From contig OZ024750.1 in NCBI GenBank assembly GCA_964016885.1, positions 14,446,001 to 14,510,000 of the forward strand: 64,000 nucleotides of DNA, written 5' to 3'. Of the stretch, positions 13,746-47,901 are shown piece after piece. The stretch's first letter is position 1, and each line of letters begins with the position of its first letter. Position numbers and translations under genes: made by a program. The notes beneath the pieces are model-generated. The model had not been told where the DNA came from. It ran no database searches and saw only the letters and a list, made by a program, of their open reading frames with translations. Source of the stretch: Eledone cirrhosa (taxonomy: Eukaryota).

Positions 13746-15418
13746 CAAACATTACAGTTACCTGAAAATGATATTTGTTATGAAGAAACTCGTTTAAGTA
13801 ATTCCTTCTGTAATTATGAATGCATGCATGAGTTTTAGGTGGGTTCAGTAATAAATTTTGTCATGTGGAAAGTTGCTCTTGTCTCGTAGCCGTTTGTCTC
13901 AAACCCATAGGCTCATCAGGCTGGTGCATATCCCTGTTTCTGTGGCGTGAAGCAACTGTGAGTTCAAGACTTCCCCTGGACAGGATGGCAGACCATAGCA
14001 GAGTTAAACCCCCAGCTACTGCTGGTACTCATTTTTCAGCTGAAGTGTTTTGCTCAAGAACAACACACAAGTTAGTCCAGGCATTGAACCCACGATATTA
14101 TTATCATAAGTCCAACACCCTTACTACTAAGCCACATGCTTCCAAAGTTATTTAACACGGAGATGTACAATATTTTATGAAACATACTTCATCAGGTCTT
14201 CATTCTCCCGACACTTCCATCTCCAACTCGCAAGAGATAAAAAGGAAATACAATATGCAAAGTAAAATCATTTTGTGAAAAACTGAATTTCTCTTAATCG
14301 TTTTTTTGTCAACAACTGAGAATAAATCAGTATTTTGCTATTTATATCCATCATCAGTACTACATGTCTCCAGAACCAAAACAGCTCTCACTATTTCCTT
14401 CCACTTTTCTGTAAATAGGCAACATTAGGTAGATAGAACTTATATAACAAGCTGTAATTAACAAGCATTTTATTAGAGTCAGTTGCTGAAAAAACACTCC
14501 CCTATGAACCTGGAAAAAAACAGAGAAATCACTCTAGTATATAGCTTCAAACCAAATTGTATGAGAATGATGATTTACACATAAATAATATAATTTTAAA
14601 AATAATAGTGAATTAAATTTTATTACAAAAAAGCTTGACAGCATTTTAAATAGTTCAATTTATGTAACATAATATAAAATAGAAGTTTTTTTAAGTATGT
14701 ATCAATTAATGTTTCTGTTGCATTTCAAAACAATTTCCATACAACCAACTGAATAAAATTACATCTGTATGTGACAATGTTCAATATACAGTTTATTATA
14801 TTTTAGTTTAATTGCTTTCATTCAGACATTTTTCTTTTAAATAAATTTTATTGACTAGTTGGTTTTGAAAATATATCTGCTTGACCAAACTTTTTGTATG
14901 AAAGTTGCTAATTGAAGTCTACAGAGTAATCATGGGGTTTTATGGTTGAATATGTAAGGTATATGATACTCCAGATAGCTCTGTATATGTTAATATAAAT
15001 CCATGAGATAAATTATTGACTATCTCATCCATTTCTATCCATTTTTATTTTCTCGAATAAAGAAGTTCACAGCTTTCCTCATAGGATGAACTTTGATTAG
15101 AAATAAATTGATCTTCCAGTTTGTTTCATATTGCCAATTAACTCAATAATTAATGATAAATAATCACCAAAAGTAAACAAACAATAATTTCATTTCCATC
15201 CATATTCTTTTGGAAAGGAACATGAATACAGTCATTTTTTAAACATTTTGATGTATTTCATATATTATAAAGGAATAATTATATGAAATGTATATGAAAT
15301 AGTATTTCTCATAGATTGATGTAAAGTAAACCATTATGTCAATACTGTGGATATGCTAAAAACATTTACAGAAAGACAATGAAAATTGTGAAAAAAATCT
15401 CTAATTTGGTTATTTTTA

Positions 15419-18400
15419 TTATTCTTTCATAATTTCTTCTAAAATAGATTTCCACCTTGATACATATGTAAAAGGTATTATTAGTTTTGAATCCTGTTCA
15501 TCTGTTATGTTATTATAAAAATAATGATAAATAAGTTCTTCCAGAGAGCTGAACTCAATTTTTGCTTTAAGAAAATATTTGGGTTCCTGCAAAAAGAAAG
15601 AAAATAAATTATAAACAACAATATGGAAATCTGTAAACATTTGACTGAAGCTCACAGAGGTGACAATGAATAATAATGATAATAATAATGAAATTATTGT
15701 GTACAGTGCTCAGGTACACTACAACTCATCAAAGGTGTATGTACAGTACATAGAATAATGTACAAATGTCAGGAAAGTGAACAGTGCATGAGTCATGATA
15801 TACATGTGTGCATGGAGGGGGGATATTAGGTGTAGTGTCGGCGAATTTCAGGAAGCATGGAGGTTTTAAAAGATGCAGTGTCTTGGCAGCTAACAACTGA
15901 TGTAGGTAGTTTGTTCCATGCTTCAGCAACTCTGAGTGTGAAAAAATGTTTCCGAAAGTCATGGGAGTTGTGCTGTTTTCTGACTTTGTAGGCATGTCCA
16001 TGGGTGTTAAACACATGGAATTCAAAAAGGTACTCAGGGCTGTTGTTGGCAAGATGATTAATAATTTTGTGGGTGTATGGAGAGATGCTGTGCTGAAGAG
16101 GACCCATCCCACCCTTGCAAGCAAGGAAAAGTGGATGTATGATGATGAAGATGGCAGGTATTACTCATAAATTATAGGTAAAACCTATCCAGATTAACAT
16201 AAGTAAGAGTAGATAAGGTTGATGTTCCATTTGTGGTTGATATGAAGAGATTCTATAACCAGGATGATGGACTATAAATCAAAGGAGCCAAACATGATGA
16301 TTTATAAAAATCAAAGGAGTAGGGGCATGCACCAGAAGTAAAGAAGATTGTTAAGATTGGTGAGATCTATGAAGCTGATGTTTTTCTTGAACAACTGTAG
16401 GGGGTTCTAGAGAAGGAAGGAGCAGATATAATAATTAATGTATGTCCTGGTAAATGGACACATTGAGCATATGTGTACACTATATATGATATGTTATAGT
16501 GTACCTTGCATATAAACCTCATTTGGTCACATTTCATGAGAGTATCTTGGTCGGTCTATGAACTTTTCAGCTGACCTTCATAAGAGTTAATTCTCTTTGC
16601 CATGGATTACTGAAGATAAGATATAAAGTGTTCATTATTCAGCTTTGAAGCAGATAATTCATAATCATGACTTTCTATGAGTCTGAATCAGAAATGTAAC
16701 TAGGGTATGGCAAACATGGCACATGCTATGAGCCCCACTTGGACTAGGAACACATTCTATTAAAACCTTTGTTGCTATTGGCGAAGAGTGAAAGAACAAA
16801 CTTCTTCAGATATATGATCTGTCTCTGATTATCAGGGGTGAGAAAAACTATGTTGGCTGGATCATCAAACCATTTATATAAATTATTAGGCCCATAGGTA
16901 AAAATAGTGCTGGGGACTACATGACCACATAGGCATACCTCATAGTACGACTTGTCAAATATTGTACAATTATCTGAAAGATGGATGTCAGATATTTGGA
17001 CAGGTGCACATAGGCACTATTTTCTCTAGTGACACATCTAGTCTGAATATGGATAAATCTTTAAAATATTAAATTTCAACTTACTGGAGTATCTTTATAA
17101 AAAATTTGGTACTTTCGAGTCCGAGCTTCTTCAGCACAGAAAAGAAGCAAAGTCTAGAATAAAAAGAAGACAATAAAAGTTTCAAGATTCATTGATATCA
17201 TTGATAAACTAATCCTTCCCATTCTTTCTCTAATACGAATTGTCTTATTGAAACTCCTACCTCTTCCCTATTAATAAGGGGGCACTGTTAGCGCAAAGTC
17301 ATTGAAACTCCTACCTTCCCCCAACTGCATTAATTCCTATTAATAAGGGGGTATTGTTAACACGATGTAGATCAAATAACAATATTATATAAAGATATAA
17401 AGATCTAAACACTTTATATCATCATCCTCATCACCATTTTACGCCCGCTTTTCCTTCTTGCAAGGGTGGGACGAGTCCTATTTGGCACAGCATCTCTCCT
17501 TTGCCATTTCCTCTGTGAGATTCAGCAATCTGAGATCAGCTCTCATCACCTCCACGGTCTTCCTCCACTGTATCTTTCATCCACTGAAATTTCTTGGCAC
17601 TTCTTCACCCAGCGATCATCATCCATGCGCATCACATGGCCATACCAATGCAGTCTTCTCTCCTGCACACTACAGTTTCACTCTCATATGTTCATTATAT
17701 ATTCTGCAATAACAATCTAAACAGTGAATTCTTTAATTTTCCGCAACTGATGTAACTATTAAGTGAAAATGGATCTGTTCTTGGAAGTTGATGTCTTTAT
17801 TAAAGTCATTTCAAAGAATACTGATTTCTTTTCAACATTCAAAATAATTAAAATGTATATAATTTTATTTCAGCATCTAACCTAGGGATGTTTCAATATA
17901 AAAATAAACAGATATCCAATCCAATCCAGGGCCTTCTTACTTCTATTGGAGGAACCCCTCCCTCTTTGACCTCCACCATTTTCTGTTTGGATTTGGTCAT
18001 GTCTTCAGGGGTGTAGTCGTACTCACCATGCTTGGCCAATTGTGGGTTGGTGAAGCTATTTAACCCATGGTTGGGGTGGATGCCTGTTGACTGTGGAGTT
18101 CATCCACCCCTTTTAAACGTTTAGCATTTACATTACTATTTACTATTGTATTTTCTTGGTAAAGGCTTTACCTCACAGAATTATCTCGCATAATATCAAA
18201 TCTATGAGATTTTGATATTATTTATTTTGAGAACAATACCTTAACATCAGTATGAGGGGCCATTTATGGCCAGTTTTAACAGAAAGAGGTGAGAAAATTC
18301 TTGCCGGTTTAAATGCTAATGGGTTAAAGCTCTTGTTTTTTTGTGCTGCTGGGGTTCCACTTACCTTCCTCACCAGACCAGGGTCTTGTGAGGGAGCCAC

Positions 18401-20658
18401 TTTAGTTGCCAACCACTCAACCATGAAGCAGGTTGTACTATATTAAATGATACCAGAAGCATGAGCATGAACTTTGCCCCCACCCCACTCAAATTATTTG
18501 CTTCAGAGAAAACAAAAATAATTACCTTTGGTGCCTCACTATTTTCACTATCCCTAATCATGTAAGCTCCAGGTTCGTTCAGTTTGTTCAATAATCTATA
18601 ATAGCACAAAAACAAAATTAACACAGAAAACAACAAAATATATAGAAAGATCTACTAACCAATCATACAATTATAGTTTTCTTCGCTATATCTATCAGAT
18701 TAGTTTGCAACAGCATCATCACCACCACCCCTCCTCACACTTATCTCTGGGAAGGTTGCAGGAGCAGAGTCCTCAAACACTCCTTTCAGCAGATCTTATT
18801 AGAAGCAACTGTCTCCAATTGATTCAGCTAGATCCCTAAATGAGACCAGATGAGTTCATGGATGTTATCCAACCATCTACAACCATTACTGTCCCACCCC
18901 ACCACCACTACCACCACCAAATATTTTGTTTATAGTTTGTAGATTTTTTTACAGTATATTGTATCTCCAATCTTGGTAGTTTTTTAATCCTTTTGATACC
19001 AACCTGGCCAAAACCTGCCCTCGTTCAATGAAAGACCACCCATTTCAAACCCTATATAAATTTATATCTTCCAACAGTTATATTAGGAACGAAATAATTA
19101 GTCATTTGAGAAAATTCTGCATTAATTAATTGAAAGAGTATTTCATTATAAATATGGTATGAGGGGTTAATGGTTGGCTTAAAAAGAAAACCTACATTAT
19201 AAATATTAATGATTTTAAAAGGTACACTATACTTACTTCATAGAATATTCTTTTGGGCCCTTGAAATGGGATGCCTGCCAGTAATCATCAACCATATTAC
19301 CCTGTTAGAAACAAACAGTAATTAGAATAGCAGCCGGGGTTTGTGTATTGCTTTATAGGTTATGGGATTTGATAGATGACAGGATAAGAAATAAATTATT
19401 TGTTGACGCCTTAACCCTTTAGCTTTTAAACCGGCCATCTCCGGCCAGAATTCTCTCACCTCTTTCTGTTCAAACTGGCCATAACCAGCTACTCATACTA
19501 ACATTAATGTATTGTTCTCAAAATAAATAATATCAAAATCTTGTAGATTCGATATTATGTAAGATAAAGCCTTTACCATGAAAATACAATAGTAAATATA
19601 GAGTAAAGGGTTAAAGCCATTTATAACTCTTTTCATCTTTTCTCCAACAAATATTTTTATAAGACCTGTCCCACCTTTGCAAGCAGGGAAAAGTGGAAGT
19701 AAAATTATGGTCACAGATATAAAAGGGTTATAAAAATTGAATTATTATAATTTATGAGGTGTGCATGCCACAACATAGTGACTTTAAAGTTAAAACTAGA
19801 CAAACTCGGAGACAAGGCAATTTAGAGCAGAAGGACAAGCTGGGGGATTTCTTCACTGGTCACAAATTCGGGGATGTGCTGTTAGATGCTTATAACAGTA
19901 AGGAAGGTGGTATAAAGATTGACAACATAGAACAGAGGGGGATTTCTGATATACTCACCTTTACTGTCGATGATGGAGGATTGTCAGATATTATCTATAA
20001 AAAATAGTATTGTTTCATATTTCAGCAATAATGAAAATTATCATCATCATTAAGAATAACAACTGCTACTGTAGCTACTACTACTGCTACTACTTTCAGC
20101 AATAATGAAAATTATCATCATCATCATTAAGAATAACAACTGCTACTGTTGCTACTGCTACTACTACTACTGCCACTACTACTACCGCCACTGCAGCTGC
20201 TGTGGAGGCATGTGGCCTAGTGGTAAGGAAGTTGGACTTATGATCATAATGTCGTGAGATCGATTCACACTTTAAATGTGGTTGATTGGCCCCCACTATG
20301 AGCTAGGCATGGCGCAGCCAACTGGCCAGGCCTACTTCATAATGGGACCACCCAGATCCATAAAACCCCCAGCCAATTGGCCAGGCATGCCTCACAATGG
20401 TGCCACCCAATTCCACACACTATGAGCAAGGCATGGCACAGCCAACTGGCCAGACATCACTCATAAATGGGATCACCCAGTTCCACACTGTAAACGTGGT
20501 TGGTGTTAGGAAGGGCATCCAGCTGTAAAAATCCCAGCCAAAATACAGCTCCGTTTGAGCAAGTTACGGCCCAGCCAGCTGGCTAGATTGTCTCATAACA
20601 TGGACGACTCGTTTAACCCATGCAAGCATGGAAAAATAGACATTAAATGATGATGATG

Positions 20659-20706
<48 letters not shown>

Positions 20707-23700
20707 GATGGATGCATCTCAATTTAAAGAATTGTCACCACCTGATCCCCTTCTCACACATATGTGGCACGAACATGACTCTTTAGCTTTGCCAAGGATT
20801 TACATTCCTTTCTTCATGTGCTGCTGTGATTGGCATGTGAGTTTTTACTGACTGAGGCTCATTGTTTTCCACAATTCTGACAGGAAGAAATGCCAAAGAG
20901 ACCATAATTAGTAACATTTTGTACATGTCTTTTATGATGACGTCTAAGACCAGCTTTGCTGAAGCAAATCCAACCACACGCATTGCACATAAAGTCATTT
21001 TGGGTATCTGAAAATCCAGGTAAATAAATATCATGTAGACCCTTAGGTAGACTCATTTTTCATGTTCCACACAAGACTTTTCAAATTCCTTTTTCTATTA
21101 AATACTGTTTTCCTCCAAGATGATCAATTTAAGGCAACGGTAGTTAGTTCTGGTTAAGATATTTAATAACTAATATATTAAATTAAATTAATTGTTTCTA
21201 CTTTTGGCACAAGGCCAGCAATTATCCAGTACATTACTGGTACTTTATTTTATCGACCCCATAAGGATGAAAGGCAAAGTTAACCTCGGCGGGATTTGAA
21301 CTCAGAATGGCAAGGGCCGTAACTCTATGCGTCAAAGCATGGCGTCCAACCCTCTACCGATACTGCCAATTCACCGCCCTATATATTAAATTAAATTAAT
21401 GTTGATCCAAACGTTTTTAAGAAACTAAGTATTTAGTTTAGCAGACCAAAAATCAAAGAAGCAAAGAAAACACACCTCAGTTGGTACATAGGAGGAGATG
21501 GGAGCACCTTTCTCAGCAAGTAGCCCTGTTGAAGAACAACCTTCTGGTAATCTCCTTAAAAAAAATTTAAAAAAAAGAAACATCCAGTGAATTGTTTTAC
21601 CTAACAACAAAAATATTTTTCATTTACTCCTTTCTTTAAAAAAAGGAAGAATATAAATAATTGTTTCTACTTTTGGTGCAAGGCCAGCAATTACCCAAAT
21701 GCATTACTGTTACTTTATTTCATTACCCAAGAGAAAAATAGCTTAATTTTAACAGAACAGACAGTTTCTTAATACAAGAGCAGTTGCATAAATATTGTTA
21801 AAGATGTAACTAAACAATTAATTTCTCATTGATTAATGACAGTGTTTTAAGGTTGTTAATGTAAAACTGCATTTGTGAGTTTTATATTGAATAATAATAA
21901 TAATAACACAATAGACCTGACCTGGTGGTTTTGGACAAGGGAAAAAGATCGTGCCTGAATGTGGATGTAGCCTGCCCATTCGACACGAGAGTGCAAGAGA
22001 AGGAGAGGGAGAAAATTAAGGGAGAATGTAAAAGGCCATAACTCTATGCTGCACAGCATGGTGTTTGACACTATCGATACTGCCAATCCTGAAGTTAAAT
22101 TCACCAAATGCAGATATTCCAACACAAATCTACCCCTGTTGAGAAGAACATATTCCAATTCTAATCTCCACAATGTCTGATGAGCAAATCAATTCTAGAA
22201 TCAAGCTTATTGAATCTAAAGGAAAAAACTACACTATCTTTGCTACATGGGAAGAGGTGGAGGGGTGGCTGTGGACTAAATAAACAAACAAATTAAATGT
22301 AGTTCTGGCAAATGTTTGGACTAATATGTATACATGCATGATCTTGTAACTCTTGGGCAAGTCATAGTGGCACCATATGTTAATAAAGAATTTCTTATCA
22401 GCAATTAATAATAGATTCTAAGTCAACTCCAAATACTAGATAGATATATTTCATTCACCTTTTTGTGGTCGTTTTGTTGCCACAACAAAAAACACCCAGT
22501 CCATACTGTAAACTGGTTTTGTAGGTGTCACGACAAAAAACACCCAGTCTATACTGTAAAGTGGTCAGTTGGTGCCACAACGAAAGACACACAGTCCGTC
22601 CTGTAAAGTGGTTGTGTTGGTGCCACATAAAAAAACACCCAGTCCATACTGTAAAGTCGTTGTGTTGGTGATACAACAAAAAACACTGACGAGTGGTTGT
22701 GTTGGTGCCACAACAAAAAGCACTCACTCCACACTGTAAAGTGGTTGGCATTTGGGATGGCATCCAGCTGTGGAAACCAGACCAGAAACAGTTCTGTATG
22801 AGCAAGACACAGTCATCTGATCTGATTTGTCTCACAATGGGACAAGCTGTCTAACCCATGTTAGCATGGAAAAATGGACATTAGATGATGATGATATTTC
22901 ATGTTGGTTATGTCATTTATGAGACGGATAACATTATCCCTGAGTCACATACCTCATTGTCAGTTGCGTTTTATTTTCATTAAATTGTTCTCTTCTTTGT
23001 CTTGAATGAAAAAAAGTGCTCTTTAGTTTGTTTTAACTATTATGGCCAAGCCCATGATGGAGCAATATGTATAGTATATATATTAAAAATAACATTTAAG
23101 TCATCATTTATATGGGAAGACTGACATTATACTTTGGTAAACCATAAATATTTTATTTTCTACTTTATCTGCCTATACATATTTTGTTGCATAGAATTTA
23201 GTGTAAATTTACTTTTCTTTGATTTGTGGTCAAATTTGTTTTATTGTTTAGTTAAAACAGGAAAGGCAGTATCCTTGGCCCTTCTCGGGGCATCCATGGC
23301 TGGTGGGAGGGAAGAAAATATATTCAAACTGGAGACAGCCTGAATGTTTGCAACAGCGTGGATTTCACTAAAGGCACTCAATGGCCATGTGATAGTCAGA
23401 GTAGACTTTATTAAAGGCACTCAATGGCCATGTGATAGTCAGACAGAACTCCACTAAAGACATCCAATGGCCATGTGGTAATCAGAGTAGACTCCGTTAA
23501 AGGCACCCAATGGCTATGTGGTAATCAGAGAGAACTCCACTAAAGGTACCCAATGGCCATGTCTTCAGGGATGTAGCTGTACTCACCATGCTTAACCAAT
23601 TGCAAGTTGGTGCATAGTTAGGGTGGATGGCCGTTGACTCTGAGGAGTTCATCTTCCCTTTAACAGCTCTTGTTTTTTATGCTGCAGGGGTTACACTTAC

Positions 23701-26700
23701 ACTTCTCATTAGACAAGGGTCTGGTGAGGGAGCTGGTTTAGTTGCAGACCACTCGACCATGAAGCAGTTTGTACTGGGTTACATGGTACCAGTAGCAAAC
23801 AGAAGCTTGATCAGATGGGCTAAATATATTGCACTGTAAATTATTCTTCCCAGTTTTAAATAGGGTTTGAAATTGAGTTTTGAGGAAGGAAAGAAATAAG
23901 ACTACAGCCAAAGCAAGTTGGAGAGTTATATGTAGAATTTATAGGAGATTTATTAAAAAAGGTTCCAAAATATATGAAGATACTTACGCTTTGCCTTTTT
24001 CCTTTTTCCATTTGCTCTCCTAAGATGGTAACCGAAAATAACACATTTTATCGAGTTGTTTTATTAAATAATATATATATATATAAAACATAAATAACTT
24101 TACAAACTGCTCACAGTTCTTTCAGAATAACATTATAAATATAATGTCGTTGATAAACACAAATATAAACGTGTATAACAAAATACAACCAACCATCGCC
24201 TGGAACCCCACAAAAACAATGCACCAAAATACATGACCAGAGTGAGTGAAAGAAAAAAAAGAAAAAAAGGCGGGAACAAAAATGACAATTAATTCACCAC
24301 CAAGTGCGACAATCAGCAGCACATCACATCACAAGGGTCAGCGGAACACTTTGTGACAAACCAACATGCTCGCAACATTACCATGGGTGATAGCAAGGCT
24401 AAGATGTTGAAACAACCAGGCACCCTCACAAACATCACCTGACACCTCAGAAGGCAAGCCACCAGCTAAGCAAAGAGATTTGAACTATTGTTCCCCCGGT
24501 TGGCAAAATAAATCATGCAACCATATATGCTGATCTTTAGTCTCATTAATAAGCAATTTCCCTTGTACTGTACCCAACATATTTTGTTTGGGGTGCTCGT
24601 GTTGCCAAATTGTCTAGGAATATACAGATTTCTAGGGGCCCATCTGTTTATTGTTAACAGCAACAAAATTCCCATGAACAGTCTGCTCTCAGCTATCCAG
24701 CAGGCAATCCAATTCCATTCACAACAAATATCGGAATGATCTAGTTTGCCAGCAGACTCAGTGGCAAATCACTGCCACTGAGAACAGCCAGCAAAACCTG
24801 CTGCATCAGCAATTCCTTTTCATAGGTCTCTTTACTCAGAATGGGATGTACTGCTCCTGATTTTGCAGAGGAATATAGCAGTCTGGGAACTGAGGACACC
24901 GAAAGTCTAAATGGTAACTGGCACAAAAAGGAAATGGTCAATCAAGCCAAGTCTCTGTATTTGGATATCTTCCATTCCTCTGTTATGGCAGTGCTGTGGT
25001 TTGTGGTCAAAGTAATATGGTTGGAACCAGAGAACATTTTATAGCATGTGGCGTCCAAAATTGTTGATTTACTTGCCTTGAATGAGGAAGAGAATTATCC
25101 TATTTGGGTGCTTACCACCACTACAGTCAAGGCTGGCAAGTTCCTGATGTGATGGGAAACTGGCCACATCTTGGCTCCTTCTGATGATATCATTCAAGGC
25201 GGTATACCATGGAGCTAACTTGCACAGTGGCAACAAGACAGCAGATGTAGTCTAAACTTAGTATGGCCATGAAGTCACATCAGTGACTCAAACACCTGGA
25301 ATTTCATGCTCAAATCCAATATAAACATTTTAAATGTATTGTTGCATAAATGAAATGATATTGTTTGTTTGTAACTACATAAAATCCCCACTTCCACAAA
25401 AAAAAAAAAAAAAGATTTTTTTTGTTCTCACCTTAACTGTAGGATTAGAATAAAGAGCCCAATATTATCAATTTGTGTTTTATGAAAAGATACAAAGAAA
25501 ATATACATTTTAAAACAATTACAAGAAAACATTAATCTATATATATATAAAGCTGTGGTTGTCTGTCTGTCTATCGATTTTTGGCATCTATATATATAAA
25601 GCTGTGGTTGTCTGTCTGTCTATCGATTTTTGGCACTCATCTCCTCTTAGAATCTCTGACGGAATTGCACCGAAATTGCTATACTTGTACATTGAGCCCT
25701 AGCGAAGACATCGGAAAAAAAATATTTCAAATTGACCCACCCTATGTGACGAAATCGAATCTAATGTATCGATTTTTGAGCGTAAGTGACGAGTTATTCC
25801 CCTTAAAGCTGTGGTTGTCTGTCTGTCTATCGATTTTTGGCACACATCTCCTCTTAGAATCTCTGACGGAATTGCACCGAAATTGCTATACTTGTACATT
25901 GAGCCCTAGCGAAGACATCGGGAAAAAAATATTTCAAATTGACCAACCCTATGTGACGAAATCGAATCTAATGTATCGATTTTTGAGCGTAAGTGACGAG
26001 TTATTTCCCTTTGTTCTGTTTACATTGAGCGTCTTACATTTTCTGCGTGCAAAAATTAAAAAAATTACGCTGGCTTTCTCAGCGTTTAAAATGACATTAA
26101 CACAATACACGAACAGTTGTCGAGCCAGCAAAATTTTGACCTGCAAAATTCATCAGTTCGAACACTAAGCTTCCGTTTTGCTTCATTTCCATTTAAAAGC
26201 CTTTTAAAACAATATTTTTACTTGAAAACAAGTCTATTTAAAGACTACGTAAAACAAGCAAATATTTCGTAAAAAAAAAAGCAAAAATTATATAAGTTTA
26301 TTTAAAATATATGTATCTGTAAATTTCGTTAGGCGTGCAGACAGACAGTCGTGCAGAGAGGTGATATACGCGTGCAGACAGACAGTCGTGCAGAGAGGTG
26401 ATATAGGCGTGCAGACAGACAGTCGTGCAGAGAGGTGATATAGGCGTGCAGACAGACAGTCGTGCAGAGAGGTGATATAGGCGTGCAGACAGACATAACT
26501 GATAATTTGGTTACGCTAATGTTTTTCTCAGCGTTGCAGTGTTTACATTTTCGATCTTTGTTAATAAATAACCAGTGCTGTTTTTATCCCCAGCATCCTA
26601 TTTTGTTATAACATTCGGGTTATCGTTATGTTTTCTTAACTTCATAAGGCATATTGTTGGTTGAGGGAATATTAATCAAAAACACCACATGCAAGTCTGC

Positions 26701-29700
26701 ACAGTAGACACTACAGTTTTTAAGCCAAAAAAGAAACTTAACATTGTAACTTTAACACAGCTACTGAGCGACCCCGAGCAACGCCGGGCTTTACTGCTAG
26801 TCTATATATATAAAACTGAGGTTGTCTGTCTGTCTACTAAAACCTTCGGCACACATCTCCTCTTAAACCGTACGTTCAAATTTCGGTGAAATTGCTACAC
26901 TTATAGATGAAGGTCCGGCGGAACCATCGGTCAAATAAATTTTCAAATCGACCCACGCCAAGTGTAAAAATCGAATTTGTAATGTATTGATTTTTCAGTT
27001 CAAATGTATAAATAGAGATGAGAGACGAGTTATTTCCCTTTTATGGCGTCATTTGCTTATCTATTTATGTTACGTATAAACGACGCGGTGGACCGAGAAG
27101 AACAATTTCATGCAAAGAGAAGACCAAGTTTATGGTGTAAATGGAGTCGTTAGCTTAATATTCTATTTAAAATAACCGAATGATTTCCAGCCCCGGAGTT
27201 TAAGAATGATGTAAATAAAATTGTAAACGAAAATGACAGGTTATTAAAATAGTTGTTTCTACTTTTGGCACAAGGCCAGCAATTAAACAGTACATTACTG
27301 GTACTTTATTTTATCAACCCCGTAAGGATGAAAGGCAAAGTTAACCTCGACGGGATTTTAACTTTGCCTTAACATAGTAAAAATAAATAGTGAAGATTTA
27401 GGCCAGTACATACGTATGCACCGACGAACATACACATACTTATACATACGCACACACAAATACATACACACACACACACATGCGCGTGTGTGTAAACCTT
27501 ATGCATTTCTACAGTATTTTCACCAAACTTAAGACATAGGTTACTCATGTACTCCGGATGGTCATGGACACTTTCATTTTTCCAGATATTGATTATAGGG
27601 CCTCCCGGTGGATAACGCCCTTTAACCACTTCCTTGGAGTCGACTGAAGCACTGCAGTGCAATGCAAAAAAAACGTCATAACTTCTGGAGTTCGCAATCG
27701 ATTTTCACAAAACTTGACACATGGGATACGTTTGTTCTACAGATGAATGTGAACTCTCAGAATTGGCACATATTGAGTAGGGGACCCCTGAGGGCAGGAA
27801 CCCCCTTTTGGAAAAAGTCGATGAGTTTATAAAAGTATAGTTTTCGAAGCAGCACTGAAGTATTGACATAAATGGTATACATAACTGCTATTTAATACCC
27901 GAGCAACGCCGGGTACCTCTGCTAGTATACTATATAATTATATTAATTTCTGGTAACAAATTTCTCAAATCAACTGTTATTAGTTTAGTAACATGGAGGC
28001 AGATGGCTTAGTGGTTAGAGCATTGGCCTTGCAATCGAAAGGTTGTGAGTTCAATTCTCAGACCGGGTGATGTGTTGTTTCCTTGAGCAAGAGACTTTAT
28101 TTCACATTGCTCCAGTTTACTCAGCTGCAGAAATGAGATGATAGGGACTGGGGTCCATATCATTCCACTGCAAAGTGTGCCACGGCAAAAAAGCACCCAG
28201 CACTCATTGTAAATGAGGTTGGTGTTAGGAAGGGCATGCAGCTGTAAAAATCAAGCCAGAATCAGTTCCCGTCCCACCCTTGTAAGCAGGGAAAAAGTGG
28301 ACGTAAAATGAAATGAAGCTGTTAATTGCTGGAATGAAATTTAGAAATAAGTATATGAATCAGAGGTTCTCAAAATTATGCAAGGAAAAGCCTTTACCAT
28401 GAAAATACAATAGTTTATATAGAGTAACATAAATGCTAAAGGGTTAAGGAGAGAGAAGATGATTGATGTTGCTTTTGAATTTTTGCAAATGATAGTAATC
28501 AGGGAAGCTAGAAGAGTATCCCATAGGTGAGATGTGAGAGGGAAGAAACAAACAGATTAGAAAATTAGGTAGTAACATGTACTTACGCCATATTTGACTA
28601 CATAGAATTAGTCTGTTAGTTGGGATTATTAAAAACAAAAGATGTGAGTTAGTGCTCCATGTACGTCAATACTCATCCTTTTTTCCATCCAGAGGTTTTT
28701 TTAAAATCCCAACTAACAGACTAATTATATATAGTGTAATTTTCTAATTTGTAAACAAAGCCTGCTTTGTGTCTCCCTATACAATCAGAATAGAATTTGT
28801 GCTTATATGCTCCCTACATATAATCAGAATAGAATTTGTGCTTATTTAGGAACCTCAACAGTAAATGGATGAGACATAACCACCAATATCATGTTCCATT
28901 TAAACTTGTGAAGATGAGGCAACAAAGAGGAAAGCTCATCAGAACAATTTCCATGAAAATGTTTATAGAAAAGGGAAAGAGAGGTAACATTTTAATGTTG
29001 TGATAGTCATTGAAGCTGGCATGTTAAGTCAGGACCAATAATGTTGATGATTCTTCTTTGGATCTTATCTTGACTCTCCAGGTGCACAGCAGAAGCACTA
29101 GACCAAATGTGGCAACAGAACTCAATTCAAGGACCTAATGGTTGATTTATAGACATGAAAAAGTTTGGGGCATGATAGAACAAACCAACTTTCTGGGCCA
29201 CAGACTTAATAGTGAATGATGTATCCATTAGTTAAAGCTGAAAACTTGATGCTATGCAATTACCCCAGTACATTACTGGTACTTTATTTTACCAACATCC
29301 GTAAGGCAAAGTTAACCTCAGTGGGATTTGAACTCAGAGTATAAACTCTATGCTGCACAGCATGGCCTCCGACCCTCTACTGATACTGCCAATCCACCGC
29401 CCTTGATGCTATATAATAATCACTGATCGTTGAAAGGCATGAGTCTGACAAATACATTTGTGATTATGAAGCTATTAAAGAATAAGCATCGAAATATGGG
29501 GGGATTAATAACAAAAACAACAACATACTATTTAAAGGTAAACGAGGAATATCTGTACAATCAATATCAAAGGTTGGAAGTTTATCTGAAATTAACAAGA
29601 CATAAAAAGAATGTAAATGACTGAAAAATATAAATATCAAGCTAGACAGGCGTTATCCTTTACTCAAAGTTAAATGAATGATCTTCCCTTGTCTTTATAA

Positions 29701-30551
29701 TTGTGTATAAGTTTGCGTTGAAGCTGTAACATCATTTCTTAACGCTTTAGCATTTAAACCGGCCATATGGTTAAAATACATATTGAAATTGGACAGAATT
29801 TTTGTTCAAGTTTGATAATAAGTTATCAGAAAAAATTCTAGAACTGTGTTCTGATGATAGCAATTCCTTAACTTCCAAGATAAATATTATGTAGAACATA
29901 GCAGTAGAGTTATAGAACTATGGATAATATATTTCAGTATATGAATGAATATTATAAACACATTTTAAAATTTGCATCAACGTTTTGCTAAATAATTGAT
30001 AAACTATATAAATTGAAAGAAAAAAATAAGAGATGAAACATAAATTCTACTTTGTGGGATTTGTGGAAGTGGCCTCGAGAATTCACTTTCATTATCTGAA
30101 TCACCATCTGGAAAAGAAATAATATCATATAATTCAGAAGTAAAACTGGAAGAAAATATTGGGGAGGTGATTGAATTAGAAGATTAAAATGAATAGTTTG
30201 TAGTTTGGCTTTTAACATGATGCAAGACTACAGAGTAAATATTTAATATTTAGATAAGGATGAGATAGAGATTGAAAAATGTTTAAAACAGAGAATTTAT
30301 AATTGTCAGTAAAACTATATGTAAACAGGTAGAAGTGAAATGCCCAATTATATATAATACTAGACCACCTGTGACCCATTGGGTCACATTCACTTCAATA
30401 TATTTTTTTAAAATCATGTTCACTTAAAAATAATTTTTAAATAATTAAAATATACAGACGTACATATAATGTGAAATGAAACTGGAAGGTCCATATATAC
30501 ATGTGTGTATGTATATATATAAATGTGTGTGTGTATATATATTTATATGTA

Positions 30552-30582
<31 letters not shown>

Positions 30583-33500
30583 GTGTGGGTGTCTGTGATC
30601 TATATACACTGGTCATAGACACATACACACACTCACACATATATATATACACACAACTCCACCAGATCTTTCTTTCTCTCTTCCATTCTCCTTCTCTCTC
30701 AATCTCCCTCAATCTCTCTCACAAACACCATCTCTTTCACTCTACCCTTCTCTCTCTCTATTTATGAAGGTACCCAGAAAACACCATATCTCGGGGAAAC
30801 CATGGTCCGATTTACGTGAAATTTTGTTTTATTCCATTTGTATTCCCATTTCAGGGGCAATTTTCTTCCAAAGTATTTTCCCATTATGCACCCTTTTGGC
30901 TGTATTACATTACAGACAAGCAAGAAAGCAATTGCATAATTTCAGTAGTGTATAGATTGGACTAGCAGCTGAGAGGTTTCAAGTACAAATCACTTATGTA
31001 TTTTGGTGTGAATTTAGCTCAAACAAATGGTTTGACAAAAGAGCACCAAGTTCTCTGTCGTAAGGAAGCAAAGGGACCTGCCTTTGTGTCTCCACTCAAT
31101 TCTGGACTGAATATCCTTGTGCGGATGTTCACTTGTTTTACATCCGTCTAAAGAATACAGCGAGTCTCTCACACACAATCATAACATTCATGAACATGCA
31201 CATCCACATGGTACCTCGTCTTGGACAAAAGGGGGCATGAAAGGCTCGCAAACTCAGGTGTCACATCAGTGGCCCTTCATCAGGGAAGTGGCCATGCTCA
31301 AATATGTAGAAAAGGAGCAGGTAGGAGCTCTATATGATGTACTTTATGTAAGGTATGGGTACACAAGGGGTGTAGTGGGAAAGCAGTCAGACTAATAAAA
31401 AAAAAAGATAGGTTTTACATGTGGCAAATGTATAGGAATAGTAGGTAGTAAGAGCAGTTAAAAAATAAACCTTTTCCAAGCAGAGGAAAAGAACCATAGA
31501 AGTAGTTGATAATTCCTGTTATTTTGCAGTAGAGGAGGTTACTCTGAAAACATAGTAGCTAAAATAAGAACAGGCTTGGAAAAGTTTACCTTTGTTAACA
31601 GCAAAGGGATTTTCTCTCTGAGCAAAGGGTTTATTACTAACATTAACCCTGTGTGTGCTCTAGGCGCATTATATCGCCAATAGAGTAATCTCCCCTTAAT
31701 AATAATGCAGTGTCAAGGGAATCAATTCATAAAAGAAATTAGCATGCTAAAAATTAAAATGTTGAAAAACAACTGTTACCACAAGAGATCTTGAATTTTT
31801 GAGGAATAGATTTAACGACATCCTTGATGTTAATATCATCATAGATAGCTTCTTCGATGTTGTTAATATTAGCTAAGGGAAAATCCACTCTCTCATCTGA
31901 AGAACCGTCAGGTAAAGCTCTAAATAAAGAAAAACAACAAAAGGCATATTTATGATTCATAATTTAATATTACAGGTTAAGTTGAAAATCAGCTGCAGGC
32001 ATTTAATATTTGTTGGAAAAAAGTAACTTTAACCCTTTAGCATTTACATTGTTCTATCTTACTATTGTATTTTCACAGTAAATGCTTTATTTTACATAAT
32101 TATCTATGTAATATCAAATCTACAAGATTTTGATGTCACTTATTTTGAGAACAATACCTTAATATAGGTATGAGCAGCCAGTTACGGCTGGTTTGAACAG
32201 AAAGAGGTGAGAGAATCCTGGCCAGATGTGGCCAGTTTAAATGCTAAAGGGTTAAAATTGAATGAAGTCTATTGGAAATATATTTCAATTCCCCCTTATT
32301 ATAGAATAAATGAGAGTAAGAAAGGCATCTAGGTAGATGAAAAAATACTTACAAAAACATGAAAAGGTTGAGATAAGGTATAGTAATGTATAACTAGTTT
32401 AACATTTGAAAATCTAAACAAAAATTGGTGCAGAGCAATTGTAAAAGTGTCACAACTGATCATCCACTCCTAAGTTTCTTTACTATGGTATAAATATGGA
32501 ACCAAATTATATTTGTGATGAAAAAAGCCCCTGATAAATTCTAGGCAACATCCATCTAACTTGTGAGGACCCTGATAAATTCTAGACAATATGTATATCT
32601 TAAGAGGGCCCTAATAAATTCTGGACAACACCCATCTAACTTGGGAGGACCCTGATAAACTCTAGACATGATTTGAATATAAAAGGTAGAAAGAGGCAAA
32701 ATTAGATGCTGCAACACCTTTAATCTGAAATGATGCTGTCTCTGTAACCTTGACATCTTTTAACACATTTCAACATTTCACATTAAAAACATTTCAATAT
32801 TAGAAAGTAAAAAAAAAAAAAAAGGGTAGTATTACAATATTTAATTGTATCCCACTTAGTTCTGTCTTTAAATTACACCAGTGCTCAGTAATTACACCAG
32901 TGCTCAGTAATTACACCAGTGCTCAGTAATTACACCAGTCCTCAATAATTACACCAGTCCTCAGTAATTACACCAGTCCTCAGTAATTACACCAGTCCTC
33001 AGTAATTACACCAGTCCTCAGTAATTACACCAGTCCTCAGTAATTACACCAGTCCTCAGTAATTACACCAGTCCTCAGTAATTACACCAGTCCTCAGTAA
33101 TTACACCAGTCCTCAATAATTACACCAGTCCTCAGTAATTACACCAGTCCTCAATAATTACACCAGTCCTCAATAATTACACCAGTCCTCAGTAATTACA
33201 CCAGTCCTCAATAATTACACCAGTCCTCAGTAATTACACCAGTCCTCAATAATTACACCAGTCCTCAGTAATTACACCAGTCCTCAGTAATTACACCAGT
33301 CCTCAGTAATTACACCAGTCCTCAGTAATTACACCAGTCCTCAGTAATTACACCAGTCCTCAGTAATTACACCAGTCCTCAGTAATTACACCAGTCCTCA
33401 ATAATTACACCAGTCCTCAATAATTACACCAGTCCTCAGTAATTACACCAGTCCTCAGTAATTACACCAGTCCTCAGTAATTACACCAGTCCTCAGTAAT

Positions 33501-46468: not shown

Positions 46469-46676
46469 AACACTGAGTTATAAGCATGTGGAAACAGAGT
46501 TTACTGAGGTTACTCAACAAAAATAACAGTAGATGTCTAGGACATAAAACCATAACTTGTGGATTAAGAGTTAAATATGCTGTTATGTCTTTCCAGAGAA
46601 GAAAATAAGGAAAGAGTAAAATAATAATAAACTTACATATGGAGTGTATTGGCATTTTTGGTTCCCAATGGTCCAT
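15419..46676 (-). CDS. SH3BP2: SH3 domain-binding protein 2-like adaptor (PH domain - linker - SH2 domain), about 386 aa; complement(join(15419..15586,17085..17153,18526..18595,19237..19301,19959..19994,21476..21554,22953..23000,25432..25436,28587..28597,30051..30107,31780..31919,33705..33760,39077..39185,40072..40174,45232..45336,46637..46676))
   Basis: PH: MDHWEPKMPIHSISCQALLSM..GWLRK..KVYVILADCCLYYYK..PKGKYPLYGYNTVQR..FSASSQYEMVEWMRRIKAE aligns by eye with 3BP2 (HWPVPMKAIGAQNLLTM..AGYLHK..CVYYFK..FSLSGYNRV..FSASSEEERKSWM). SH2: LLNKLNEPGAYMIRDSE..KTLLLF..RKYQIF..KYFL..FSSLEELIYHY. All junctions GT-AG, total 1161 nt in frame. Linker exons are less certain than PH/SH2 exons. Confidence 0.85.
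15676..16115 (-). mobile_element. 3' fragment of CR1/L2-type LINE (same family as 35785-38057)
   Basis: Encodes THKIINHLANNSPEYLFEFHVFNTHGHAYKVRKQH..FFTLRVAEAWNKLP, with the family 3' UTR and (ATT)n tail. Confidence 0.85.
18117..18323 (-). mobile_element. piggyBac-type MITE
   Basis: TTAA on both sides, TIR like CCCTTTAGCATTTA. It interrupts a repeat whose uninterrupted copy (23641-23680) has a single TTAA. Confidence 0.8.
19415..19610 (+). mobile_element. piggyBac-type MITE
   Basis: TTAA-CCCTTTAGC...AAAGGG-TTAA; same family, opposite orientation to 18117-18323. Confidence 0.8.
20203..20660 (+). mobile_element. tRNA-headed SINE with RTE-like tail and internal tandem repeats
   Basis: Head GGAGGCATGTGGCCTAGTGGTAAGG; tail GGTTGGTGTTAGGAAGGGCATCCAGCTGTA...CCCATGCAAGCATGGAAAA...(GAT)n. 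Confidence 0.6.
20740..21110 (-). mobile_element. RTE/BovB-like LINE 3' remnant (C2H2 zinc-finger region)
   Basis: FMCNACGWICFSKAGLRRHHKRH followed by a frameshifted CQNCGK finger. Confidence 0.5.
21190..21379 (-). mobile_element. Full-length Nin-core SINE with TSD
   Basis: Family sequence; flanking duplication ATATATTAAATTAAATTAAT. Confidence 0.85.
22460..22893 (+). repeat. SINE tail with about 45-bp internal tandem repeats
   Basis: Units like AAAAAACACCCAGTCCATACTGTAAAGTGGTTGTGTTGGTGCCACA repeated about 6 times, then the family tail. Confidence 0.65.
23365..23562. repeat. About 45-bp tandem repeat, about 4.5 copies
   Basis: TAAAGGCACTCAATGGCCATGTGATAGTCAGA core repeated. Confidence 0.8.
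24060..24470 (-). mobile_element. CRE-like retrotransposon 3' remnant
   Basis: Homologous to 2200-2435, plus 3' UTR. Confidence 0.55.
25432..25436 (-). other. Candidate 5-nt microexon (TTAAG) of SH3BP2-like gene
   Basis: ttctaatcctacag|TTAAG|gtgaga, preceded by about 100 nt of AG-free, T-rich sequence; needed to close the reading frame. Confidence 0.5.
25536..26800 (+). mobile_element. Non-autonomous Helitron
   Basis: Starts A|TCTATATATATATAAAG; ends with hairpin CCCGAGCAACGCCGGG then CTAG. Contains a duplicated 5' end (25587), an about 208-bp internal duplication and a 37-bp tandem array. Confidence 0.8.
26331..26496. repeat. 37-bp tandem repeat, about 4.5 copies, inside Helitron
   Basis: AGGCGTGCAGACAGACAGTCGTGCAGAGAGGTGATAT. 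Confidence 0.9.
26801..27925 (+). mobile_element. Second non-autonomous Helitron, head-to-tail with the first
   Basis: Starts TCTATATATATAAAACTGAGGTTGTCTGTC immediately after the first CTAG; ends CCCGAGCAACGCCGGGTACCTCTGCTAG|T; contains a Nin-SINE fragment (about 27250-27360). Confidence 0.8.
27995..28315 (+). mobile_element. tRNA-headed SINE (second family) with RTE-like tail
   Basis: A-box TGGCTTAGTGG, B-box GAGTTCAATTC, body TCCTTGAGCAAG..TTCACATTGCTCCAGTTTACTCAGCTG. Related copies at about 7750-7920, 13890-14140, 39375-39620, 42670-42790 and 44300-44520. Confidence 0.7.
28587..28597 (-). other. Candidate 11-nt microexon (TCAAATATGGC) of SH3BP2-like gene
   Basis: ctaacagactaattctatgtag|TCAAATATGGC|gtaagt: consensus donor, branch-like CTAAC/CTAAT; needed to close the frame. 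Confidence 0.55.
29263..29402 (-). mobile_element. Nin-core SINE with TSD CTTGATGCTAT
   Basis: Family sequence and flanking direct repeat. Confidence 0.75.
30360..30956 (-). mobile_element. Non-autonomous Helitron (different family)
   Basis: On minus strand starts A|TCTATACACTACTG and ends with hairpin GTGACCCAATGGGTCAC then CTAG|T; internal microsatellites. Confidence 0.6.
32033..32251 (-). mobile_element. piggyBac-type MITE
   Basis: TTAA-CCCTTTAGCATTTA...TAAATGCTAAAGGG-TTAA perfect TIRs. Confidence 0.85.
32871..33554. repeat. 19-bp minisatellite, about 36 copies
   Basis: TAATTACACCAGTCCTCAG head-to-tail without spacers; variants GTGCTCAG and GTCCTCAA. Confidence 0.97.
33794..34010 (-). 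mobile_element. CR1/L2-type LINE 3' end fragment
   Basis: Family 3' UTR and (ATT)n tail. Other 3' fragments at 43000-43305 (+) and 46262-46470 (+). Confidence 0.8.
35785..38057 (+). mobile_element. 5'-truncated CR1/L2-group LINE, antisense in SH3BP2 intron
   Basis: Endonuclease tail remnant PLGDSDHAMI, long RT ORF, 3' UTR and (ATT)n tail. A second 3' end follows to 38185. Confidence 0.9.
35995..37935 (+). CDS. LINE reverse transcriptase domain (ORF2 remnant, 646 aa open frame)
   Basis: SPGLDG, WKTASVIPLFKKG, NYRPVSLTS, QFGF, DVVYLDFAKAF, GVPQGSVLGPLLF, YADD, ERDLGI, VRPHLEF, NTRGH motifs. Confidence 0.9.
   Translation: MPRKRKKHPKSAIWETAAVRLARKERRNAEREYKLHKSDINRKRRNRSSNHLKQVTKKAVLQFEQRIATSPDSKVFWKYVHSKQRPHSPVGPLRNPHTSQVTDDPKECAELIAECYAGIFTIEDQSVPSPPPMTPDSITTMEFTPAMLRRHLKNKCNHASPGLDGVTYLLLKRGGYFLLHQLSRFFQFCLNNSATPEQWKTASVIPLFKKGDRTSPVNYRPVSLTSCIAKLMESCVRETLWNFWSSHSLIRPSQFGFIPNSSCCDQLIEFLEDITRITDGGSWVDVVYLDFAKAFNSVPHKRLMAKLSAMGVKDDLFNWLKSFILSRREVVTVLGQHSSPYEMSSGVPQGSVLGPLLFVAYINDIDANLRNATVLKYADDIKLYLEIKRTDPEHYRSCLQSDLDTMQQWISDWQLKLAVDKCTTMHFGSKNPASTYSLHSTNIKKSSCERDLGITVSSDLRWTRHVSKIVKRAEGVLASLSKTFVSRSPDIYLRLYTAMVRPHLEFASPVWNPYLAQDIDRLETVQRRATKRIPSIRHLPYSERLASLGMDSLKLRRLATDLVNTHKIVNHVANNNPECLFDFHVSNTRGHAHKVRKQHSSHDFRKHFFTLRVAEAWNKLPASVVSCRDTASFKASMLPEIRQHYS
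38369..38840 (-). mobile_element. RTE-clade LINE 3' fragment
   Basis: Homologous to 55085-55990; also 41720-41960 (+) and 18740-18880. Confidence 0.65.
40220..40607 (+). mobile_element. piggyBac-type MITE with internal 60-bp tandem expansion (about 4 copies)
   Basis: TTAA flanks; unit TTATGTGAGATAAAGTGTTTACCGTGAAAATACAATAGTATATATAGAGTAATGTAAATG repeated. Confidence 0.75.
40930..41650 (-). mobile_element. RTE-clade LINE 3' fragment
   Basis: MLHGSETWVVTAEDMHRLER, QERRLRQYGH and RGKPRKIW..VRADL in broken frames; (GAT)n tail. Confidence 0.75.
44913..45131 (+). mobile_element. piggyBac-type MITE
   Basis: TTAA-CCCTTTAGCATTTA...TAAATGCTAAAGGG-TTAA. Confidence 0.85.
45660..46130 (-). mobile_element. 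Degenerate RTE-like LINE fragment
   Basis: Minus-strand pieces KLDGAYTKMLR..LYGDLPKIT..RFAGHCWR..LLLWE..RGRPA. Confidence 0.55.
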
Positions 46677-47901
46677 TGTGTCAGAACGTAACCTGAAATA
46701 TAAGTAATGAAAATTGTTAAAATATCTTGTGTTGTAGAAGTATAACAAATTGATGGCATATAAACTTTAGAGTATGCAAGAAACAAGTTTTTATTCGCAG
46801 TTGTATAAATAACATTACAAATAATTAAAAAAGAGAAAGAAAAAAAAAAACACACACACACACACACAAGCAGGTAATACATACATCTAAGACCACATAC
46901 AACAAAGGGCAGGCGAAAGAGGTGGACAAATTAGCCGCTACCAGAGCAAAAGATAACAATAACAGGCTGGAAAATGTAGTTAGGCGACAGATCACGGTAT
47001 TTCAAGATTTTGTTCCGTTCGCCCTAACCGCTGCATCCGGGATGTGGGAAGAAGCAAAAGAGTCACTAACTGTGACGTCTCAAATAAGGCACCTGCCTCT
47101 TAATCAGGGGGATAGGGTAAGACCGTCAGGTGTTTTCAAATCAATTCGGGACAACCCAGGCGGTTTCAAATTTTTTTTTTTTGGGGGGGGGGACAAAGTT
47201 CTCTTGAAGTGACAGTAAAATCGTAAAGTAAACGTATAGATTTTAGAAAATATGGTTATTTTACATTCTTCAATAAAAAATATAAAGTACCTTGCGAAAT
47301 ATATGCTTCCACAGACTATCAATAATGAGCTTCGGTTTTCCACACCCACTCAATATATATATGAGTGTATGTTTATGCATGTCACGTGTATATATAGATT
47401 TATATATGTATACATACATGTTTTCAACTTATACACAAATTCTTTGGCTACACATTCATCCTAGGACTTTAGACAGAAGAGCTGACCGCTAATTGGTATT
47501 ATATATAATATGTGTGTTGTGGCTATTGTTGCAAATTCCACCATATCACCACTAAATAATTTAACAAAAAGGGTGTATCTAGGAAATAAGAAATAAGTTC
47601 CTGTATTGGTATATTTTCTATTAATGAGTAAGTATTTCAAATATATCCCGTTTCTCTTAAAGTATCAGCTATATCCGTAATTTCCGGTTTTGAATTGTCT
47701 CTAAACACTCGCACTATTACTTTATTGCAGCGGTTCCCAAAGTGGGTTCCGCAAAGAAGTGTCTGAGGTTCCGTGAAAAAATGGTAGAGGGGTATATTTA
47801 TAATATGACCATATAACAGTATTAGACTTTGAGGTTCCCCCAAAAGTTTCTGAGCCAAAAAAGGGTTCGACTAGTTGAAGGTGGTCTATAGTATATTTGG
47901 C

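What the first reader, a model, noticed from the sequence alone, without database searches (positions are those of the whole stretch)
25432..28597. Two tandem microexons (11 nt + 5 nt) needed to close the SH3BP2-like reading frame
Seen: exon 30051-30107 ends in phase 1, and the next ordinary exon (22953-23000) is open only if entered in phase 2. Between them are tag|TCAAATATGGC|gtaagt (28587-28597) and cag|TTAAG|gtgag (25432-25436), the latter after a long AG-free T-rich tract typical of microexons. Including both gives ...RPLPQIPQ-IKYG-LR-QRREQ... in frame. Skipping either or both shifts the frame before the SH2 domain. Inference: a coupled non-3n microexon switch selecting a full adaptor versus a PH-only or NMD product. 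A frame match alone has a 1-in-3 chance.
Basis: partly seen in the sequence, partly recalled or inferred. Interest (0 to 1): 0.75.

Follow-up and report, generated by a model that had tools for sequence, protein, structure and literature searches.

The report
One likely 5-base exon, not two

Summary
The letters, splice sites and phases are as described, but the exon chain is wrong. The 11-nt piece is part of a repeat arm: 22 of 28 arms examined carry the same AG and GT. The 48-nt 'next exon' has no counterpart in Octopus or Argonauta orthologues and is crossed unbroken by a contig. A 3n+1 insert is still needed before exon 21554. The best chain is the 5-nt piece (rank 2 of 10,341 short candidates) plus a missed 32-nt exon, 24019-23988, whose donor ranks 1 of 356 for likeness to the orthologue; it also gives the contig's remaining 210 letters exactly. 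These two junctions are inferred, not read. No regulation is shown: it looks like a normally included non-triplet microexon, as in human MPC1. The scan noted a similar case elsewhere in this genome (e1-8671683). Low interest.

The parts
46637..46692 (-). First coding exon (acceptor position not checked)
   Evidence: 7/11 identity to the start of the O. bimaculoides model P0005
45232..45336 (-). PH exon
   Evidence: 19/31 identity to Argonauta P0004
40072..40174 (-). PH exon
   Evidence: 19/25 identity to P0008
39077..39185 (-). PH exon
   Evidence: 30/36 identity to P0008
33705..33760 (-). End of PH domain; its last codon starts a tankyrase-binding-type motif
   Evidence: 15/17 identity to P0008; motif pattern
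31780..31919 (-). Linker exon, spliced to 30107
   Evidence: Loose end behind 30108 maps here; 34/46 identity to P0008
30051..30107 (-). 57-nt linker exon, phase 1 to 1
   Evidence: Covered by the spliced contig at depth 58.3; 13/17 identity to P0008
29529..29585 (-). Missed 57-nt exon, phase 1 to 1; acceptor shown by RNA, donor inferred
   Evidence: 30 loose letters before 30051 are window 29556-29585; 9/18 identity to Argonauta P0004, 7/16 to P0008 at the matching place
28553..28740 (.). MITE-like repeat with inverted arms; holds the 11-nt piece
   Evidence: 1,271 first-look candidates, 77 matches from 40 scored; 44-nt arms; extent
28587..28597 (-). 11-nt piece: probably not an exon
   Evidence: 22 of 28 repeat arms have AG and GT at the same places; weak acceptor
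25432..25436 (-). 5-nt microexon, likely real, phase 1 to 0
   Evidence: Rank 1 of 1,357 in the interval, 2 of 10,341 in the window; single-copy flanks; junction not read
23988..24019 (-). Missed 32-nt exon (tandem acceptor at 24016 would give 29 nt), phase 0 to 2; inferred
   Evidence: Donor ranks 1 of 356 open donors by peptide likeness and 1 of 475 by base likeness; AG-free zone 76 nt; single copy
22953..23000 (-). 48-nt piece: not in the main transcript of the one run seen; possible rare in-frame cassette
   Evidence: X4 record 14 spans 22850-23398 unbroken; donor ranks 292 of 356; good donor score 5.3
21476..21554 (-). Linker exon read in phase 2 to 0
   Evidence: 15/25 identity to P0008 residues 180-202 in that frame
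19959..19994 (-). 36-nt exon, phase 0 to 0
   Evidence: 8/12 identity to P0008
19237..19301 (-). Exon at the start of the SH2 region
   Evidence: 14/19 identity to P0008
18526..18595 (-). SH2 exon
   Evidence: 15/23 identity to P0008
17085..17153 (-). SH2 exon
   Evidence: 16/23 identity to P0008; length fits the 72 unlaid letters of X4 record 9
15419..15586 (-). Last coding exon, end of SH2
   Evidence: 32/55 identity to P0008; single copy in G000

Best explanation
The transcript joins exon 30107-30051 to a missed 57-nt exon at 29585, and from there it likely runs through the 5-nt microexon (25436-25432) and a missed 32-nt exon (24019-23988) into exon 21554, which would give a 396-residue PH-linker-SH2 adaptor. 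The 5-nt and 32-nt exons each leave a remainder of two bases, so together they move the frame from phase 1 to phase 2. Skipping either would put a stop at 21515, and skipping both a stop at 19993, each more than 230 nt before the last junction, so such messages would probably be destroyed by nonsense-mediated decay. That cost is best read as the reason why the microexon has strong sites and is normally included, not as a switch. The 11-nt piece is a look-alike carried by a repeat; the 48-nt piece is unused in the sample seen.
For: Shown: junctions 31780>30107 and 30051>29585. Orthologues fix the frame of exon 21554 (phase 2 to 0) and carry only 25-28 nt of short basic sequence before it. Donor 23988 ranks 1 of 356 open GT donors over the last 6 residues (tied first of 335 over 7), with a KxKG pattern in register, and 1 of 475 at base level (8 mismatches, next 10). 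The 5-nt piece ranks 1 of 1,357 and 2 of 10,341 by splice score. 57+5+32+79+36 = 209, plus one G shared by intron and next exon = the 210 letters left on the contig, a natural branch point of the same type as seen at exon 17153. Chains 5+29 and 5+32 rank 1 and 9 of 1,203 by homology; 11+5 ranks 130 and 11+5+48 would rank 468. Rival 5-nt piece 26042-26038 lies in a young high-copy repeat.
Against: No read or contig letter was seen across the 5-nt or the 32-nt exon; only 30 of the 210 letters were printed. The length fit is not unique: inserts of 10, 37 or 46 nt all end at a natural point, 129 of 1,203 chains have such a length, and plain read-through from 29585 for 210 letters ends about 30 letters into a repeat, also a natural end. 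The homology covers about ten residues of a lysine-rich stretch. A 31-nt exon starting at 24018 would close the frame alone and scores slightly higher against P0008 (1192 vs 1184), but has no AG in this assembly. O. sinensis X1 and X2 differ by one Leu, which implies a junction at another place (my inference). Splice scores come from recalled, approximate weights. One run, one sample, tissue and library unknown.
Confidence: 0.6

Rival explanations
1. No microexon is needed: the assembly (or one allele) has one extra base at 24019-24020, and a single 31-nt exon, matching the 28-nt orthologous stretch plus one codon, closes the frame.
For: 24018-23988 matches the back-translated O. sinensis stretch better than any of 475 donors; the model scores 1192 against P0008.
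Against: No AG before 24018 in the window; the contig would end 7 letters inside exon 19301, not at a branch; leaves the exceptional 5-nt site unexplained. No gap at this place among the 12 rows shown, but 17 rows were hidden, so it is untested.
Confidence: 0.1
2. The 5-nt or the 32-nt exon is real but pairs with another short piece (for example 25120-25116, 26042-26038, or 11+32, or 11+5 without the 48-nt piece).
For: Several such chains close the frame, and 26042-26038 plus 32 scores 81 against 80 for 5+32.
Against: 26042-26038 lies in a repeat with 1,006 candidates; 25120-25116 has a splice score of 5.4 and an AG-free zone of 10 nt; 11+32 and 11+5 do not end the contig at an exon border.
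Confidence: 0.17
3. In this sample the message reads through the donor at 29529 and ends as a PH-only form; the SH2 half is a separate or rarer transcript.
For: 210 letters straight on from 29585 end about 30 letters inside a repeat; O. bimaculoides RefSeq splits the gene in this linker (P0005, P0006).
Against: The PH-side contig and the SH2-side contig have like depths (58.3 and 49.7); O. sinensis X1-X5, O. vulgaris and Argonauta models run through the linker into SH2; likeness to the orthologues ends at 29529.
Confidence: 0.07
4. One reading: 30051 > 11 nt > 5 nt > 48 nt is a coupled non-triplet switch between a full adaptor and a PH-only or degraded product.
For: The chain is open (386 aa). 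This copy of the repeat has the better donor GTAAGT; the exact 20-mer is found at only 3 places in G000, so use of a repeat as an exon is not excluded. The counterpart of the 57-nt exon can be skipped in O. sinensis.
Against: The only junction seen at 30051 goes to 29585. 11-nt piece in a repeat arm with a weak acceptor. The 48-nt piece is crossed by an unbroken contig, and the depth left over in its bin (about 2,115 letter-depth) is less than 48 x 58.3 = 2,798 (my arithmetic; the same sum reproduces a bin). No orthologue has its peptide. No data on tissue-dependent inclusion.
Confidence: 0.04

Closest known systems
Human MPC1 4-nt microexon (PMC9929638; abstract and Introduction read)
   Same: Very short, non-triplet exon between long introns; constitutively included, with skipping expected to give a premature stop.
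   Different: MPC1 is shown by experiment; here inclusion is inferred, in a mollusc, and the frame is shared with a second short exon.
Octopus sinensis LOC115232387 isoforms X1-X5 (XP_029658103.1 and others), O. vulgaris CAI9717469.1, O. bimaculoides XP_052834347.1/XP_052834348.1, Argonauta hians GAB1598849.1 (names)
   Same: Same PH-linker-SH2 protein, same exon-sized blocks; 227/342 identity of the 5+32 model to X1.
   Different: Their short basic stretch is 25-28 nt against 34-37 nt here, and the one-residue X1/X2 difference implies another internal junction; their DNA could not be read with these tools.
SH3BP2 (3BP2)
   Same: PH domain, Pro-bearing linker, tankyrase-binding-type motif, C-terminal SH2; best PDB match of P0001 and P0004 is the 3BP2 SH2 domain 2cr4_A.
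   Different: The motif lies just behind PH here, at residue 415 in human 3BP2 (PMC9688111, passages); orthology not tested by a tree.
Neural eMIC/SRRM3/4-dependent microexons (PMC8797185 and 10.1101/2024.09.17.613571; passages read)
   Same: Long AG-free zone and a CUAAY motif near the acceptor.
   Different: No UGC in 93 nt upstream, a strong rather than weak acceptor by my score, not frame-preserving; tissue pattern unknown.
C. elegans tnt-3 28-nt non-triplet microexon (PMC13247117; passages read)
   Same: Precedent for a regulated non-triplet short exon that picks the downstream frame.
   Different: There both forms are made and regulated; here nothing shows a skipped form.

Membership tests
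Microexon (5-nt piece) | 3-27 nt, flanked by AG and GT | tested here: met
Microexon (5-nt piece) | Present in spliced RNA | tested here: inconclusive
   Only the contig length fits; letters not seen
Microexon (5-nt piece) | Conserved in relatives' genomes | not testable with these tools
   No other eukaryote genome is held; only proteins were available
Microexon (11-nt piece) | Joined to donor 30051 in RNA | tested here: not met
   Contig goes to 29585; one run
Microexon (11-nt piece) | Splice signals above background | tested here: not met
   Rank 757 of 10,341; AG and GT shared by 22 of 28 repeat arms
Neural eMIC/SRRM3/4 microexon | UGC near the acceptor (in 74-79% of human cases per 10.1101/2024.09.17.613571) | tested here: not met
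   None in 93 nt upstream of the 5-nt piece
Neural eMIC/SRRM3/4 microexon | Long AG-free zone and CUAAY motif | tested here: met
   98 nt; motif at -12
Neural eMIC/SRRM3/4 microexon | Neural-specific inclusion | not testable with these tools
   One run of unknown tissue
Regulated non-triplet switch | Both included and skipped forms exist and vary by tissue or stage | tested here: inconclusive
   One contig path at 30051; contigs drop rare forms
SH3BP2-like adaptor | N-terminal PH and C-terminal SH2 | tested here: met
   Pfam PH and SH2 above cut-off in orthologues; window exons align to them
SH3BP2-like adaptor | Tankyrase-binding motif Rxx[ACGP]xGxx in the linker | tested here: met
   At residue 138 of the window model and in 8 of 9 orthologue proteins scanned; the ninth lacks that half; binding untested
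SH3BP2-like adaptor | Orthology to vertebrate SH3BP2 by phylogeny | not tested
   Only best PDB hit and the RefSeq name of P0005
MITE-like repeat (28553-28740) | Short, high copy, inverted arms | tested here: met
MITE-like repeat (28553-28740) | Target-site duplication and matching transposase | not tested
   Label is by anatomy only

The most novel reading that the evidence does not exclude
The 5-nt exon is a tissue-regulated off switch for the whole SH2 half of the adaptor, in a linker whose short exons have been re-cut between octopod lineages, and the 48-nt piece is an optional in-frame cassette whose last two bases complete a second tankyrase-binding motif at the start of exon 21554, so that splicing would set both the presence and the half-life of a 3BP2-like protein.
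Probability: 0.08. Interest if true: 0.6.

Novelty: new member of a known kind. Interest (0 to 1): 0.2.

Why it matters
Mostly for annotation: a 5-nt exon next to a 32-nt exon would explain why this gene is easy to break in two, as the O. bimaculoides models are in this same linker. It also shows a trap: a common octopod repeat carries a ready-made AG-11 nt-GT look-alike. Constitutive non-triplet microexons are known (MPC1), so there is no new mechanism unless regulated skipping is found.

Tried and rejected
Run search: no RNA holder listed; X4 was treated as RNA only because its contigs join exons across introns. First lay (14900-32000, X4 and X1) was swamped by repeats; 1,460 joints were hidden, so it gave no junction. 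Protein searches with single window exons found nothing; P0002 is a low-complexity chance match and was dropped. My early idea that exon 21554 is read in phase 1 and joins 20876-20804, with no short exon, was rejected: orthologues fix phase 2 and a contig crosses 20876-20804 unbroken. 21007-20804 and 21971-21922 have no orthologous match. 22989-22953 (37 nt) fits the length but uses a GAG acceptor behind three AGs and lies in the unbroken contig. The Atlas gave no answer for P0004. Six paper searches (microexon with octopus, cephalopod, reading frame, AG exclusion zone, tandem terms; SH3BP2 with octopus) listed no paper on this gene; supplements were not opened, and exon tables of the bioRxiv study 10.64898/2026.09.05.749416 could bear on it. 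No structure or complex was predicted: it would not decide a splice chain.
Full report
Observation. The gene is single copy in G000, a 3.0-Gb assembly. Its closest proteins are from Octopus and Argonauta, so I call the animal an octopod by inference.

The gene. The last exon found O. sinensis LOC115232387 X5, and this led to isoforms X1-X4, O. vulgaris, two half models in O. bimaculoides and an Argonauta model. They carry Pfam PH and SH2; the best solved match is the 3BP2 SH2 domain (E 7.6e-4 and 3.3e-7). Aligning 20 candidate window exons to three of these proteins placed the exons from 46692 to 15422 and fixed exon 21554-21476 in phase 2 to 0, directly before 19994-19959. The 48-nt piece, 21971-21922, 20876-20804 and 21007-20804 gave only background scores.

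RNA. Four runs of one study hold the last exon; none is on record as RNA. X4 behaves as RNA: a 1,650-nt contig lies on the last exon from its letter 73, which fits exon 17153-17085 spliced in front (my inference from lengths). On 29880-30400, four X4 records were laid; one, 915 nt at depth 58.3, covers exon 30107-30051 with loose ends on both sides. The upstream end is exon 31919-31780; the downstream end is window 29585-29556, behind a good acceptor. That exon, 29585-29529, is 57 nt, phase 1 to 1, and matches the block that O. sinensis X3-X5 skip. Its donor is inferred from homology. As it is a multiple of three, the frame problem remains: 3n+1 bases are needed between 29529 and 21554.

The 48-nt piece. 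An X4 contig spans 22850-23398 without a break, which a graph with a strong spliced path through 23000-22953 should not give (inference from how such contigs are built, recalled). The depth of its bin, 9.55 over 571 places, leaves about 2,115 letter-depth after that contig, less than the 2,798 that 48 letters at 58.3 need (my arithmetic; it assumes that all pieces were counted). It has a fair donor (5.3, third in the interval), so a rare in-frame cassette is not excluded.

The 11-nt piece. Its 121-nt surroundings have 1,271 first-look candidates in G000 and 77 matches from the 40 scored. It lies in one arm of an element of about 190 bp with inverted arms. In 17 loci (15 that I picked from the hits, 2 from the exact pattern), 28 arms aligned over the site: 27 have the AG, 23 the GT, 22 both. 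The picks favour close copies. Against my reading: the exact 20-mer with GTAAGT occurs only 3 times, so this copy has a better donor than most. Its acceptor is weak and its AG-free zone is 13 nt, against 33-71 nt for the 11 homology-backed exons scored.

The 5-nt piece. With recalled, approximate splice weights it ranks 1 of 1,357 pieces of 3-60 nt in 29528-21555 (12.8; next distinct site 7.7) and 2 of 10,341 pieces of 3-27 nt on both strands of the window. Its AG-free zone of 98 nt is reached by 4 of 398 AGs in the interval; its flanks are single copy. It has a CUAAY motif at -12 and no UGC in 93 nt.

The real partner. O. sinensis has a short basic stretch of 25-28 nt at this place. Of 475 GT donors in the interval, 356 are open over six codons, and 23988 ranks first for likeness to that stretch (14 against 9); over seven codons it ties for first of 335; 22953 ranks 292. 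At base level it is also first of 475. Its exon, 24019-23988, is 32 nt (29 nt from a tandem acceptor), has a 76-nt AG-free zone and is single copy. From the 161 of 1,845 candidates with a splice score of -2 or more, 1,203 one- or two-piece chains close the frame; 5+29 ranks 1, 5+32 ranks 9, 11+5 ranks 130, and 11+5+48 would rank 468. The contig has 210 letters after 30051. The chain 57+5+32+79+36 ends at 209, and the next letter is a G in both the intron and the next exon; the other named chains would end 4 to 22 letters inside an exon (11+32). This is not unique: 129 of 1,203 chains have an insert of 10, 37 or 46 nt, and read-through from 29585 also ends near a repeat border.

How it works. 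Shown: two junctions and the frame demand. Inferred: junctions 29529>25436>24019 and 23988>21554, and a 396-residue protein with 227/342 identity to X1. Skipping the 5-nt or the 32-nt exon gives a stop at 21515, skipping both a stop at 19993, 280 and 239 nt before the last junction; by the usual rule (established knowledge) such messages are decayed. Nothing shows that this is used as a switch. If the length argument holds, the contig passes both exons without a branch, which fits plain inclusion in that sample. I put the 5+32/29 chain at 0.6, and the 5-nt piece being a real exon at about 0.7.

Comparison. It works like the constitutive 4-nt MPC1 microexon (PMC9929638, abstract and Introduction read). 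It meets some sequence features of neural eMIC microexons and fails others (PMC8797185 and 10.1101/2024.09.17.613571, passages). Regulated non-triplet short exons exist (tnt-3, PMC13247117, passages), and so do genes with several microexons in a row (RPS24, search listing only). Six searches listed no paper on this gene. Earlier scan notes list many microexons in this genome, one of them a 6-nt exon read as constitutive (not checked by me).

Verdict. Partly confirmed observation, mostly wrong chain, no evidence of a switch. A new member of a known kind; interest 0.2.

Noticed in passing
window 33705/31919 junction, minus strand: A tankyrase-binding-type motif (Rxx[ACGP]xGxx) just behind the PH domain is kept in the window model and in 8 of 9 orthologue proteins scanned; it supports likeness to 3BP2.
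   Followed up: partly
window 21554-21530, minus strand: A near-motif at the start of this exon becomes a full tankyrase-type motif only if the exon before it ends in AG, as the 48-nt piece does. Not conserved in orthologues; the pattern is loose.
   Followed up: partly
P0008 versus P0010: O. sinensis X1 and X2 differ by one Leu inside the short basic stretch; by codon logic this needs a tandem donor or a 3-nt exon, so that species too likely has microexons here.
   Followed up: partly
window 25535-26300 and 26042-26038: Young high-copy repeat (92-100% identity in 40 scored matches) that carries another 5-nt AG..GT look-alike.
   Followed up: yes
window 19963-19959, minus strand: An inner acceptor in the 36-nt exon would give a 5-nt piece with a high score (9.8); use would shift the frame.
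   Followed up: no
window 4294-4303, plus strand: The highest-scoring short-exon candidate of the window (10 nt, 14.6), possibly an exon of the neighbouring plus-strand gene.
   Followed up: no
window 12535-13320, plus strand: NRBF2-like coding region (Pfam hits below the curated cut-off), convergent with the adaptor gene.
   Followed up: partly
window 5844-7043, minus strand: Fumarylacetoacetate-hydrolase-family gene.
   Followed up: partly
window 35905-37935, plus strand: 676-codon open frame with a reverse transcriptase domain, a retroelement inside an intron of the adaptor gene.
   Followed up: partly
window 51191-52630, plus strand: 479-codon open frame with no Pfam match at E 0.01; probably mobile-element derived (guess).
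   Followed up: no
window 32880-33560: Long tandem array of a 19-nt unit in the intron between exons 33705 and 31919 (seen).
   Followed up: no
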